A DNA stretch of 64,000 bases from the human T2T-CHM13v2.0 reference genome, Homo sapiens. The stretch is taken from assembly GCF_009914755.1 (NCBI RefSeq), contig NC_060927.1. The stretch is one strand, 5' to 3'. The notes under the pieces were generated by a model. That model searched no databases. It was not told the origin of the DNA and worked only from the letters and a program-made list of their open reading frames with translations. Below are positions 50,862-53,189 of the stretch, piece after piece; positions within the stretch are counted from its first letter, which is position 1; each line of letters starts with the position of its first letter. The position numbers were made by a program, and so were the translations under genes.

Positions 50862-52347
50862 CTTTTAAAATAAAAACATAAATTTCATTAAGAAATACAA
50901 TTCCTACTATGTAAAGGTTTACTATACGAAAAATATACATCATCATATTCATCTTTTCTGTACCTAGCTTCCTCCAAAATATTTCATCCTTCCATTCACA
51001 GGATGTATTGTGTAAGACTGTTAGGGTAGCATCCTCTTGTCATACTGCCACACTATATATTGTTCAAGATTGTTAGGGTAGCATTCTCTTGTCAAACTGC
51101 TACAGCCAAATTATTTAAGCAATATGATTTCACTCTTCAAATATATTATCTGTGTATATATATGTGAAAACGTTAACACCTCCTTCACCACTATCAAGCC
51201 CCCTAGCTCCCAATCCCACCCCGGCTCAACAGGCAACCTATTAATAATAGGGTTAAACCCATACTATGCTCATTAAGTCTCAACTTCTCTGAAAATTCTT
51301 GGGCTCTCTCTACATCTAATGTAACTAGAGTTGTATTTTACAATAATTATCTGATTATCTGTAAGATACTTGATTTACAGCTACTACAGCTACTACATTT
51401 TTATCTCTGAATCCTTAGTGATTATAATCTCAGTTAACATGTACTGCAACCACTAGTCCAAGCCATCATTGTCTCTCACTGAAATTAGCTCTTACATCTT
51501 CAGTTTCCACCAGATGTATCACCCTAGTCTTTTTCAGCCACAATAAACAATTGCTTCCCATTACACATCCCATGGCTTTCAAGATCTGCTCCCCAGACAC
51601 CCTCCAATCTCATGCATTCCTCCCAGAACACTATACCCCAGACACACTGGCTTTGTTACTATTACTTTAATCTGCCAGGCTTCTGGTTCATCCTGCCTGT
51701 AACAACTGCAAGGCTCACTTCTGCATTTCATTTCCTGACCAACTTACCAACGTACCCAAAAACTCTGCAACTAGTTTTATGCCCTTACAGCACTTATCAC
51801 TGCTTGATTAATTCCATTTCACTCTCTCTTCTCCACTAGAAGTTTCTTGGTGGTGGGTAAACTGCCTGCTTGGTTCACTGTTGGGTTACCCAGTCCTGTG
51901 CTGCCCATGTAGTATTTAATATTTGGTGAATAAATTCAACAAATAAAAACTGGCAGCAAGATGTTAAGACTTTGACTTTAACTGGCTACCTCTACTGAAT
52001 AAATAACTTGAGACAATTCTCCTATGTACACATCAGACATGTTTCTTGCAACATACTCAAATACTAAAGTACTCAGCATTAAAGGTTATATACAATTTGG
52101 ATTTACAGGGCCTATAATTTACTGGACTGGGACTGTGGACACAACTGGCTCATATTCTAGCAATAAATGACACTTACAACTAGACTCAGCAATTGGCACT
52201 CATTTACTGAATTTCCCATTTATGTAGGCCTTTAGTCTAAAGTTCATATTTATTCTTGCATATAAACAGAATACATGTAATAACTACATATTCTATGAAA
52301 TATTCCAAAACTACTATAGTTTTATTAAAATTTGCAAAAGTACCAAC

Positions 52348-52469
52348 CTTTTAGAGAACTGTTTCTCAGAAACAACTGTGATTTTATTCTTGAAGCGTTC
52401 AATGTGAACAACATTCCCGAGATTTCCAGTTTTGCCATTGACTTTAACCTTCTCCCGTAGAAATTGCTC
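52348..52469 (-). CDS. RPL22L1: Ribosomal protein eL22-like 1, exon 3
   Basis: aaaatag|GAG...AAAAG|gttggt; [40 protein letters not shown]; 122 nt. Confidence 0.98.
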
Positions 52470-52632
52470 CTATTTTAAAACAGAAAAAATGCAAAACTAG
52501 GGAAGAGAACCCTAGATATTCACTAGGGAAGGTACCCTAGGAATAGAGCTTAGGTTATTATCAAATACTATATATTTAAACCATTATCAATAACTCTGAT
52601 TACAAAAATAAGCCGAGTAGAATGATACTTAC

Positions 52633-52725
52633 AAAATTTCCAGAATCAAAAATTCCATCTTCTACTGGATGAGTAAGGTCCAAATTAAACCTCCAGGTTG
52701 ACCTCTTGGGCTTCCTGTCTTTCTG
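52633..52725 (-). CDS. RPL22L1: Ribosomal protein eL22-like 1, exon 2
   Basis: atgtag|CAG...TTT|gtaagt; QKDRKPKRSTWRFNLDLTHPVEDGIFDSGNF; 93 nt. Confidence 0.98.
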
Positions 52726-53189
52726 CTACATAAATGAGAAATAATTATGTAGCTATATAAAACAACTTATTCAATTTATATAAACAATTTTAAAGTTTGT
52801 ACCAATGCAATCTGTACAATGTACTGTTAGGTTACATATACAGAAATGTAACAATAAATAAAAAAACACCACCACTACCCACGCCGGGGTTGATTTGAAC
52901 CTCTAACCAAGTCCTAATATGTTCAAGTTGTCAAAAAGTTACGGACTTTCATTGTTTTCTATACTACCAATGATCAATTTTAAATTATCGTGCTTTTCTG
53001 CCACCCCACTGCAGATGGGAATAGGTTAGTATACTGCCTAGCCCAAGCTCAGGTAAGTGCCAGAGCTAGGATTCCACCCACCTATGTCTAGAAAATTCAA
53101 TTCTTACGTTATTATAGGCAAGGGAAGGGGACTTTGGTAAAAAAAAAAAAAAAGAAAAGAAAAGAAAAAGAAAAAATAAAAATAAAAAA

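What the first reader, a model, noticed from the sequence alone, without database searches (positions are those of the whole stretch)
52497..52540. Four-block CUAGGG/CCCUAG hairpin array in RPL22L1 intron 2, each loop matching the eL22 binding pattern
Seen on the RNA: CUAGGG-UACCUU-CCCUAG-UGAAUAU-CUAGGG-UUCUCUU-CCCUAG. It can fold as two 6-bp hairpins (1:2 and 3:4) or as one long hairpin (2:3 plus 1:4). All three possible loops are 6-7 nt, closed by G-C and end in U. Established: eL22/RPL22 binds short stem-loops with a G-C closing pair and a 3' loop U (EBER1-type) and represses its paralogue RPL22L1. Block 1 contains the AG of an alternative acceptor. Inference: a conformational, possibly cooperative RPL22-sensing splice switch. 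The regulation is known; I cannot tell whether this two-state architecture has been described.
Basis: partly seen in the sequence, partly recalled or inferred. Interest (0 to 1): 0.75.

Follow-up and report, generated by a model that had tools for sequence, protein, structure and literature searches.

The report
Known RPL22-binding hairpin pair in RPL22L1
The four-block repeat is real and forms the pair of RPL22-binding hairpins at the alternative splice site of RPL22L1 that three groups have already described, while the proposed flip between two folds is not supported by folding calculations once neighbouring bases are included.

Summary
[quoted passage not shown] Block 1 holds the AG of the exon-3A acceptor. 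It is not chance: 0 of 300 window shuffles give such an array, and the three-block pattern is unique in the 3.1-Gb genome.

It is already in print. Three groups (Jansen, Fan, Weinstein) show predicted RPL22 stem-loops in RPL22L1 intron 2 at this alternative acceptor, and one reports an RPL22 GoldCLIP peak there.

With 5 nt of flank, hairpin 1 extends to 11 bp. Tandem P is then 0.95-0.96 in 54- to 163-nt contexts and nested P is at most 0.004. Both folds bury all four AGs, so they expose the same splice signals. The alternative pairing looks like a by-product of duplicating a ~25-nt hairpin.

One new lead: the validated RPL22 element in MDM4 intron 6 has the same same-stem a-b-a-b layout, and its two folds are predicted to be nearly equal in energy. 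Vertebrate conservation could not be tested here.

The parts
52535..52540 (-). Block 1 (CUAGGG), the 5' arm of hairpin 1. It contains the AG (52538-52537) of the exon-3A alternative acceptor. With the next base it reads UAGGGU.
   Evidence: annotation row 'exons of other transcripts 52348-52536'.
52529..52534 (-). Loop of hairpin 1 (UACCUU), closed by 5'G-3'C, with U as its last base.
   Evidence: flagged as fitting the eL22 motif in the MFE of the 183-nt context.
52523..52528 (-). Block 2 (CCCUAG), the 3' arm of hairpin 1.
   Evidence: I10.
52541..52545 (-). UAUUC, the 5' strand of the 5-bp extension of hairpin 1. It is also the 3' end of the pyrimidine tract of the alternative acceptor.
   Evidence: extended hairpin 1 is -13.6 kcal/mol against -8.3 for the core.
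52516..52522 (-). Spacer UGAAUAU. U52522 is bulged, GAAUA (52521-52517) pairs with UAUUC, and U52516 is the 1-nt linker. In the nested fold this stretch would be the apical loop.
52510..52515 (-). Block 3 (CUAGGG), the 5' arm of hairpin 2. With the next base it reads UAGGGU.
52503..52509 (-). Loop of hairpin 2 (UUCUCUU), closed by 5'G-3'C, with U as its last base.
52497..52502 (-). Block 4 (CCCUAG), the 3' arm of hairpin 2. It directly abuts the polypyrimidine tract of the canonical acceptor.
52470..52536 (-). The 67-nt exon-3A extension used when the upstream acceptor is chosen. It shifts the frame and gives a 64-aa ORF.
   Evidence: This agrees with the 'putative 64 amino acid product' quoted.
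52472..52496 (-). U-rich polypyrimidine tract of the canonical acceptor, followed by the canonical AG at 52471-52470.
   Evidence: and the annotation (exon 3 begins at 52469).
52554..52563 (-). Cluster of branch-site-like motifs (UnAy) with candidate branch A at 52555 (in UAAUAAC), 52558 and 52561. These lie 19-25 nt upstream of the exon-3A start and 86-92 nt upstream of the canonical exon start. No UnAy match lies between the two acceptors.
   Evidence: This is a motif scan only; no branch points were mapped.

Best explanation
The array is the pair of juxtaposed eL22/RPL22-type stem-loops in RPL22L1 intron 2 that is already described in print. It most likely arose by local duplication of a hairpin unit of about 25-26 nt.

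In the free RNA it is predicted to sit almost entirely in the tandem fold: hairpin 1 extended to 11 bp, a 1-nt linker, then the 6-bp hairpin 2. That fold presents two G-C/U loops.

The element lies between the alternative acceptor (inside block 1) with its branch-site-like cluster, and the polypyrimidine tract and AG of the canonical acceptor, which begin right after block 4.

Shown in print: free RPL22, which rises when rRNA synthesis or ribosome assembly is disturbed, occupies this region. Use of the canonical acceptor then falls relative to the upstream one.

Shown here from the sequence: the upstream acceptor adds 67 nt, shifts the frame and gives a 64-aa ORF.

Inferred: RPL22 on the hairpins, above all hairpin 2, hinders assembly on the canonical 3' splice site 27 nt downstream. 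The block does not work by refolding the RNA. The nested fold is a geometric by-product of repeating a stem and its complement.
For: Sequence and fold:
- establish the blocks and the extended hairpin 1.
- Tandem P is 0.95-0.96 in 54- to 163-nt contexts.
- Hairpin 1 has P 0.99 in every context longer than the bare 44-mer.

Duplication: direct repeats of 10 nt and 7 nt at spacings of 26 and 25 cover 17 of the 19 hairpin positions.

Identity with the published sites: refolding the stretch defined in the Jansen preprint legend (10 nt of exon 2, intron 2, 10 nt of exon 3) gives 5 hairpins. Exactly 2 fit the eL22 rule, and both are in this array.

Literature:
[quoted passage not shown] - Predicted hairpins next to exon 3A.
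- WDR5 WIN-site inhibitors deplete transcripts using the distal (canonical) acceptor, while the proximal-acceptor isoform is insensitive, and RPL22 knockout blocks the effect. This points to repression of the canonical site.

Frame.
Against: - A second CLIP data set found no peak in RPL22L1; its authors blame low RPL22L1 mRNA levels.
- No mutagenesis of these two hairpins appears in the passages and sections I read. The cis requirement rests on an intron-less cDNA only.
- A simple occlusion model does not explain how the upstream AG is used. It sits in the middle of an 11-bp stem with P 0.99.
- Hairpin 2 drops to P 0.10-0.15 in two longer in-silico contexts and 0.75 in a third.
- Branch points are not mapped. 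No UnAy motif lies near the canonical acceptor, so the step that is blocked is unknown.
- All folds are nearest-neighbour predictions for naked RNA.
- Conservation was not tested.
Confidence: 0.8

Rival explanations
1. The array toggles between two tandem hairpins and one nested long hairpin, and RPL22 binding, possibly cooperative, selects one fold and so sets the choice of acceptor.
For: - The bare 44-mer folds nested: MFE -17.6, nested P 0.75 against tandem 0.16.
- If the pyrimidine tract 52550-52541 is held single-stranded, tandem is 0.37 and nested 0.23.
- MDM4 intron 6 has the same a-b-a-b layout. Nested P is 0.74-0.86 in contexts of 47-87 nt and tandem P 0.65-0.75 in contexts of 260-568 nt.
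- Such arrays are rare: 5 of 1000 shuffles of that 3-kb locus and 0 of 8 other 3-kb loci have one.
- The yeast RPL22 intron is reported to behave as an Rpl22-responsive allosteric switch.
Against: - In context the nested fold has P 0.0002-0.0044, a gap of 3.3-4.4 kcal/mol.
- The direct-path barrier estimate from tandem to nested is 22 kcal/mol, and a four-way-junction intermediate lies at -5.7 against -22.0.
- The extended hairpin 1 is complete before block 3 is made.
- Both folds pair all four AG-containing blocks, so they give no different read-out at the splice sites.
- RPL22 has two sites in the fold that already dominates.
Confidence: 0.06
2. Attenuator-like variant. Hairpin 1 masks the upstream acceptor. 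When the upstream 3' splice site is engaged and block 1 is pulled single-stranded, block 2 pairs with block 3. RPL22 on that 2:3 loop keeps block 2 from re-masking the AG and so favours exon 3A.
For: - With 52550-52535 held single-stranded, 2:3 has P 0.69 against 3:4 at 0.26.
- The 2:3 loop also fits the G-C/U rule (sequence).
- The model predicts the published direction, in which RPL22 raises 3A use.
Against: - A lone 2:3 hairpin is -7.7 kcal/mol, against -22.0 for the 54-nt tandem fold. This is a gap of about 14 kcal/mol that the binding of one protein is unlikely to pay.
- RPL22 should bind the 1:2 and 3:4 loops as well.
- One search reports the proximal-acceptor isoform as insensitive, which argues for repression of the canonical site and not activation of the upstream one.
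Confidence: 0.05
3. The functional read-out runs through hnRNP A1. Blocks 1 and 3 with their next base are UAGGGU, the high-affinity hnRNP A1 motif. The hairpins, and RPL22 on them, control whether these single-strand sites are available at the two acceptors.
For: - UAGGG[A/U] is quoted as the SELEX consensus, and the same review lists Rpl22 as cooperative with hnRNP A1 at zebrafish smad2 exon 9.
- Two copies lie 25 nt apart here.
Against: - The window holds 29 UAGGG[A/U] on the - strand, so the motif is common.
- Both copies are paired with P 0.99 and up to 0.97 in local contexts.
- No hnRNP A1 data for this site were found among the 7 papers listed for RPL22L1 plus hnRNP A1 plus alternative splicing (listing only).
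- The primary zebrafish paper was not held.
Confidence: 0.07
4. A neutral local duplication with no function. The RPL22 response is mediated elsewhere, for example by an exon-2 hairpin as reported for zebrafish rpl22l1.
For: - The eL22 rule is loose: 11 of 224 random 6-bp hairpins in the window fit it.
- One CLIP study saw no peak in RPL22L1.
- In zebrafish the tested site is in exon 2.
Against: - A GoldCLIP peak lies over this splice site.
- The array sits exactly on the regulated acceptor.
- The hairpins keep 17 of 19 positions alike, while about 1 of the 7 positions behind them match (aligned by eye).
- An intron-less cDNA is not repressed.
Confidence: 0.03

Closest known systems
L22-binding stem-loops in MDM4 intron 6 (preprint 10.1101/2023.12.29.573614; CRISPR deletion, reporter mutagenesis and RIP are quoted)
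   Same: [quoted passage not shown]
- Found here: hairpins within each gene share one stem sequence (CAGAG/CUCUG at intron +35/+49, +142/+155 and +172/+184). Blocks 3-6 form the same a-b-a-b array.
- All five loops start and end with U.
   Different: - The MDM4 element lies downstream of a 5' splice site and drives exon skipping, not acceptor choice.
- It has three hairpins, not two.
- Its tandem and nested folds are predicted to be near equal and depend on context, whereas RPL22L1 is locked tandem.
- The MDM4 2:3-type hairpin does not fit the eL22 rule: with the bare 5-bp core its loop ends in A, and by my reading of the sequence the stem extends by two U-A pairs, making the top pair U-A. The RPL22L1 2:3 hairpin does fit.
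- The stem sequences of the two genes are unrelated.
Yeast RPL22A/B intron regulatory element (PMC4838235 in listing only; PMC13630204 abstract and passages)
   Same: Rpl22 binds an intron of its own paralogue and reduces productive splicing. A two-conformation (P/I) allosteric model with mutually exclusive stems has been proposed. Human RPL22 partly substitutes in yeast.
   Different: The yeast element acts on 5' splice-site use and stalls spliceosome assembly before step 1, and it needs the whole intron. Here the element sits at a 3' splice-site choice, and the alternative fold is not predicted to be populated. No sequence or structure comparison with the yeast intron was made here.
EBER1-type / SELEX eL22 stem-loop consensus (Dobbelstein and Shenk 1995; Toczyski and Steitz), known to me only as quoted
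   Same: [quoted passage not shown] Both tandem loops and the 2:3 loop meet the rule.
   Different: These are viral Pol III RNAs and in-vitro ligands, not a splice-site element. The rule is loose: 4.9% of random 6-bp hairpins in this window fit it. notes that the ribosomal 28S site looks different.
Zebrafish rpl22l1 exon-2 hairpin (PMC3750023, passages)
   Same: Rpl22 binds a consensus hairpin in its paralogue's RNA and lowers its expression.
   Different: The zebrafish site is exonic, acts on mature mRNA abundance, and was tested by UV crosslinking and reporter assays. The human element is intronic and acts through acceptor choice.

Membership tests
eL22/RPL22-binding stem-loop (Dobbelstein-Shenk consensus) | Short stem-loop predicted to form | tested here: met
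   Extended hairpin 1 is -13.6 kcal/mol and hairpin 2 is -7.7. Both appear in the MFE of the 54-, 163- and 183-nt contexts. P(1:2) is 0.99. P(3:4) is 0.95-0.97 locally but 0.10-0.75 in longer contexts.
eL22/RPL22-binding stem-loop (Dobbelstein-Shenk consensus) | [quoted passage not shown] | tested here: met
   Read from the sequence. Flagged for 2 of the 5 hairpins in the 183-nt MFE. The 2:3 hairpin also fits.
eL22/RPL22-binding stem-loop (Dobbelstein-Shenk consensus) | RPL22 actually binds the site | not testable with these tools
   Literature only. A GoldCLIP peak of RPL22-Halo lies over the variant-3 splice site. A second CLIP study found no peak in RPL22L1. I saw no hairpin-resolved binding or mutagenesis.
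Ribosomal-protein paralogue control by unproductive splicing | The regulated isoform is unproductive (frameshift and premature stop) | tested here: met
   The extension is 67 nt and the ORF stops after 64 aa, against 122 aa for the canonical protein.
Ribosomal-protein paralogue control by unproductive splicing | The regulator protein shifts the isoform ratio | not testable with these tools
   Literature only.
Protein-responsive RNA conformational switch (yeast RPL22 intron P/I type) | Two mutually exclusive folds of comparable free energy in the native context | tested here: not met
   Nested P is 0.0002-0.0044 in all contexts with 5 nt of flank or more. The folds are comparable only in the bare 44-mer, or when 52550-52541 is forced single-stranded.
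Protein-responsive RNA conformational switch (yeast RPL22 intron P/I type) | The two folds expose different functional signals | tested here: not met
   All four blocks, each carrying an AG, are paired in both folds by construction. Only the spacer and the loops change state (sequence).
Protein-responsive RNA conformational switch (yeast RPL22 intron P/I type) | Covariation supports both folds across species | not testable with these tools
   No vertebrate genomes are held. Within this genome there is no second copy: one search finds none, the RPL22 intron lacks the array, and the processed pseudogene lacks the intron.
Protein-responsive RNA conformational switch (yeast RPL22 intron P/I type) | The ligand stabilises the minor fold | not testable with these tools
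   By motif count, the tandem fold offers two sites and the nested fold one. This is inference only.

The most novel reading that the evidence does not exclude
Same-stem a-b-a-b hairpin arrays may be a recurrent RPL22-sensing module. Both RPL22-responsive pre-mRNA elements examined here, RPL22L1 intron 2 and MDM4 intron 6, are built from repeats of one stem and its complement, so each can re-pair between a tandem and a nested fold. In this reading RPL22, which recognises the hairpin loops, selects the tandem conformer. In MDM4 that fold alone shows eL22 loops. In RPL22L1 the balance would become open only when the pyrimidine tract of the upstream acceptor is occupied. RPL22 would then compete with 3' splice-site factors through RNA refolding.
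Probability: 0.12. Interest if true: 0.65.

Novelty: already known. Interest (0 to 1): 0.3.

Why it matters
RPL22 loss is among the commonest lesions of microsatellite-unstable tumours, and RPL22L1 then becomes a synthetic-lethal dependency. The cis element through which RPL22 silences RPL22L1 is therefore of practical interest, for example for splice-switching oligonucleotides.

This check shows that the element is the published one and that a refolding mechanism is unlikely at this locus. It also sharpens what is still missing. Nobody, in the texts I could read, has mutated these two hairpins or mapped the branch points. And it is unexplained how an AG buried in an 11-bp stem becomes the preferred acceptor when RPL22 is high.

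The recurrence of same-stem arrays in MDM4 and RPL22L1 is a cheap, testable lead on how RPL22 reads pre-mRNA.

Tried and rejected
- Tandem Repeats Finder on 52300-52800 at minimum score 30 returned 0 rows. The duplication is too short and diverged for it; the repeat finder shows it.
- Rfam gave 7 matches at E 1.6-7, all far below their gathering scores and none credible.
- Paralogue test: the 3' end of RPL22 intron 2 (L006) has no CUAGGG/CCCUAG array (read by eye).
- The RPL22L1 processed pseudogene L004 derives from the canonical isoform and carries no intron sequence.
- A 201-nt DNA search of the genome found only the locus itself. The tool warns that it skips common words.
- A long-range pairing of loop 3 plus block 4 with exon 3 (52460-52451) appeared at P 0.6-0.8 in the 378-nt fold. 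Its duplex energy of -9.3 is matched by 308 of 1000 shuffled exons and 452 of 1000 shuffled queries, so I rejected it as chance.
- Print check of the two-state idea: 1 paper holds RPL22L1 plus 'RNA switch', and it is the yeast paper. In the passages shown it names RPL22L1 only in its reference list. The 15 rows listed all have 0 RPL22L1 occurrences, so that search is uninformative. None of the 7 papers listed is about this element by its title; only the first (the yeast paper) and the second (the WDR5 paper) were also read in passages for the fold question.
- The Jansen preprint has 0 occurrences of 'repeat', 'identical', 'palindrom', 'alternative structure' and 'refold'.
- The journal version of Fan et al. 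(PMC12277005) and Zhang et al. 2017 (PMC5234864) are not held.
- Figures and bioRxiv supplements were not visible: Fig 4E-F of Jansen, Fig S6A of Fan, Figs S5-S6 of Weinstein. They may show more than the text says, including the extended hairpin or alternative folds.
- UBAP2L, the third reported target, was not examined because no anchor sequence was available in the text.

Full report
**Observation.** On the - strand the window reads, from 52540 down to 52497, four 6-nt blocks: CUAGGG, CCCUAG, CUAGGG, CCCUAG. The repeat finder lists the perfect inverted pairs 1:2, 2:3 and 1:4. Each of the three possible hairpins has a 5'G-3'C top pair and a loop of 6-7 nt ending in U. The AG at 52538-52537 precedes the annotated alternative exon start at 52536.

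**More than chance.** None of 300 dinucleotide-preserving shuffles of the 64-kb window contains a non-low-complexity same-stem four-block array, while the real window has one. A three-block pattern is found once in the 3.1-Gb genome, with 1 hit for the reversed control. A 201-nt search finds no second copy. The eL22 rule by itself is loose: 11 of 224 perfect 6-bp hairpins on this strand of the window fit it. Only one tandem pair of such hairpins exists.

**Fold.**
- The 44-mer alone folds as the nested long hairpin: -17.6 kcal/mol, z -2.77. The nested fold has P 0.75 and the tandem fold 0.16.
This extends hairpin 1 to 11 bp with one bulged U and takes it from -8.3 to -13.6 kcal/mol.
- With only 5 nt of flank the MFE is the tandem fold: -22.0, z -4.97, 0 of 200 shuffles as good.
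- In constrained partition functions the tandem fold has P 0.95-0.96 and the nested fold 0.0008-0.0044 in 54-, 64-, 84- and 163-nt contexts.
- Hairpin 1 keeps P 0.99 in every context longer than the bare 44-mer. Hairpin 2 is less robust: 0.75, 0.15 and 0.10 in the 263-, 378- and 161-nt contexts.
- Growing-chain folds show the extended hairpin 1 complete before block 3 exists.
- A direct-path estimate puts the tandem-to-nested barrier at 22 kcal/mol, and a four-way-junction intermediate lies at -5.7 against -22.0.

**Origin.** Direct repeats of 10 nt and 7 nt at spacings of 26 and 25 nt mean that the two hairpins are alike at 17 of 19 positions. The 7 nt behind them share about one (my own alignment by eye). 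The array therefore looks like a local duplication of one hairpin. Any such duplication of a stem and its complement creates 2:3 and 1:4 pairing automatically. Because the stem starts with C and ends with G, the 2:3 hairpin also gets a G-C top. Only its terminal loop U is an independent coincidence. The paralogue RPL22 has no such array at the end of its intron 2. The RPL22L1 processed pseudogene on contig C4 derives from the canonical mRNA.

**Splice anatomy.** The upstream acceptor adds 67 nt, shifts the frame and gives a 64-aa ORF. This matches the 'putative 64 amino acid product' in the Fan preprint. Block 4 abuts the U-rich tract of the canonical acceptor, whose AG is at 52471-52470. A motif scan finds no UnAy branch-site match between the two acceptors. 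The nearest are A52555 (in UAAUAAC), A52558 and A52561, which lie 19-25 nt upstream of the exon-3A start and 86-92 nt from the canonical exon start. This is a motif scan and not a branch-point map.

**What is in print.**
- The preprint 10.1101/2023.12.29.573614 (sections 8 and 12 read in full, other passages; figures not visible) states that L22 depletion raises the coding L22L1 mRNA and lowers a non-coding variant. [quoted passage not shown]
- Refolding that same stretch gives five hairpins, of which exactly two fit the rule, and both belong to this array. So I equate the published sites with the finding. That equation is an inference, because I could not see the figure.
[quoted passage not shown] It also reports an RPL22-Halo GoldCLIP peak there, not shared by RPL22L1-Halo, and loss of repression for an intron-less cDNA.
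- Weinstein et al. (PMC12035866 and its preprint, passages) show predicted hairpins next to exon 3A but found no CLIP peak in RPL22L1.
- The eLife paper PMC11057873 (passages) reports that nucleolar-stress-inducing WDR5 WIN-site inhibitors deplete transcripts using the distal (canonical) acceptor. The proximal-acceptor isoform is insensitive, and RPL22 knockout largely blocks the effect.
- O'Leary et al. (PMC3750023, passages) tested a different site, a hairpin in exon 2 of zebrafish rpl22l1.

**Mechanism.** Binding of RPL22 to this region and the shift in isoform ratio are shown in print. The unproductive frame of exon 3A is shown here. I infer that RPL22 on the tandem hairpins, mainly hairpin 2, hinders assembly at the canonical 3' splice site that starts right after block 4. 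This fits the selective loss of the canonical product. It is unexplained how the upstream AG, paired in an 11-bp stem at P 0.99, comes to be used. If both acceptors use the 52555-52561 branch cluster, the hairpins lie between the branch point and the canonical AG. The step being blocked would then be different. Only branch-point mapping can tell.

**The two-state idea.** It fails two defining tests here. The folds are not comparable in energy in context, and they do not expose different splice signals, because all four AG-bearing blocks are paired in both. Three results count for it:
- Holding 52550-52541 single-stranded, as a protein on the upstream pyrimidine tract would, gives tandem 0.37 and nested 0.23. 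Also holding block 1 open gives 2:3 at 0.69 against 3:4 at 0.26.
- The validated RPL22 element in MDM4 intron 6, located with a published primer, consists of three hairpins sharing the stem CAGAG/CUCUG. Blocks 3-6 form the same a-b-a-b array. There the nested fold has P 0.74-0.86 in 47- to 87-nt contexts, both folds are populated at 131-175 nt, and the tandem fold has P 0.65-0.75 at 260-568 nt.
- Such arrays are rare. With 5-nt stems, 5 of 1000 shuffles of that 3-kb locus, 14 of 100 shuffles of the 64-kb window and 0 of 8 other 3-kb loci have one.

The recurrence (2 of 2 elements examined) can mean repeated local duplication of a binding hairpin, or it can mean selection for re-pairing. I cannot separate the two.

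**Print check of the two-state idea.** 1 paper holds RPL22L1 plus 'RNA switch'. It is the yeast study PMC13630204 (abstract and passages), which proposes an Rpl22-responsive P/I switch in the yeast RPL22 introns. In the passages shown it names RPL22L1 only in its references. Searches added nothing on the human element. The Jansen preprint contains none of five words that would signal repeated stems or alternative folds.

**Verdict.** The feature is real and functional by published evidence, and it is already known as a pair of RPL22 stem-loops. Three things remain open: vertebrate conservation and covariation (not testable here), the unseen figures and supplements, and the third target, UBAP2L.

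Noticed in passing
L016:1605-1758 (MDM4 intron 6, +35 to +188): The three RPL22-type hairpins of MDM4 intron 6 share one stem, CAGAG/CUCUG, at intron +35/+49, +142/+155 and +172/+184. Blocks 3-6 form an a-b-a-b array whose tandem and nested folds are predicted to be near equal and to depend on context. Only 5 of 1000 shuffles of the 3-kb locus give such an array.
   Followed up: partly
window 52503-52534 (-) and L016:1610-1753: All five loops start and end with U: UACCUU and UUCUCUU in RPL22L1, and UGGCCCCUU, UGAACCUU and UUCCAGU in MDM4. Three of them end in CCUU followed by C. This could be an extended RPL22 loop preference, but the sample is very small and two of the loops are duplicates of each other.
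   Followed up: no
window 52534-52539 and 52509-52514 (-): Blocks 1 and 3 with their next base read UAGGGU, which is the hnRNP A1 SELEX consensus quoted. The same review lists Rpl22 as cooperative with hnRNP A1 at zebrafish smad2. The window has 29 such motifs on this strand, so this may be coincidence.
   Followed up: partly
window 52557-52569 and 52583-52595: A second direct repeat in the same intron (13 nt, 85% identical) has the same 26-nt spacing as the hairpin duplication and carries the UGAUAAU branch-site-like motif. The 3' half of intron 2 may have grown by 26-nt duplications.
   Followed up: no
window 52491-52498 and 52428-52435: There is an 8-nt perfect complement between the end of block 4 plus the start of the canonical pyrimidine tract (AGUUUUGC) and exon 3 (GCAAAACU) (I5). 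It was not tested on its own. A neighbouring pairing of block 4 with exon 3 was no better than shuffles.
   Followed up: partly
window 52720-52728 (-): The exon-2 acceptor is a tandem UAGCAG. This fits the annotated alternative exon start at 52722 against 52725, a 3-nt NAGNAG choice.
   Followed up: no
L004:1500-1530 (contig C4, RPL22L1 processed pseudogene): The pseudogene joins exon 2 directly to exon 3 (canonical isoform). Compared with the parent gene it lacks a short stretch of exon 3. The protein match covers 102 nt against 120.
   Followed up: no
L006:1640-1700 (-) (RPL22 intron 2, 3' end): RPL22's own intron 2 ends with a short direct repeat (GAGACAGAU twice, about 24 nt apart, seen by eye) behind Alu-like sequence. 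It has no eL22-type array there.
   Followed up: no
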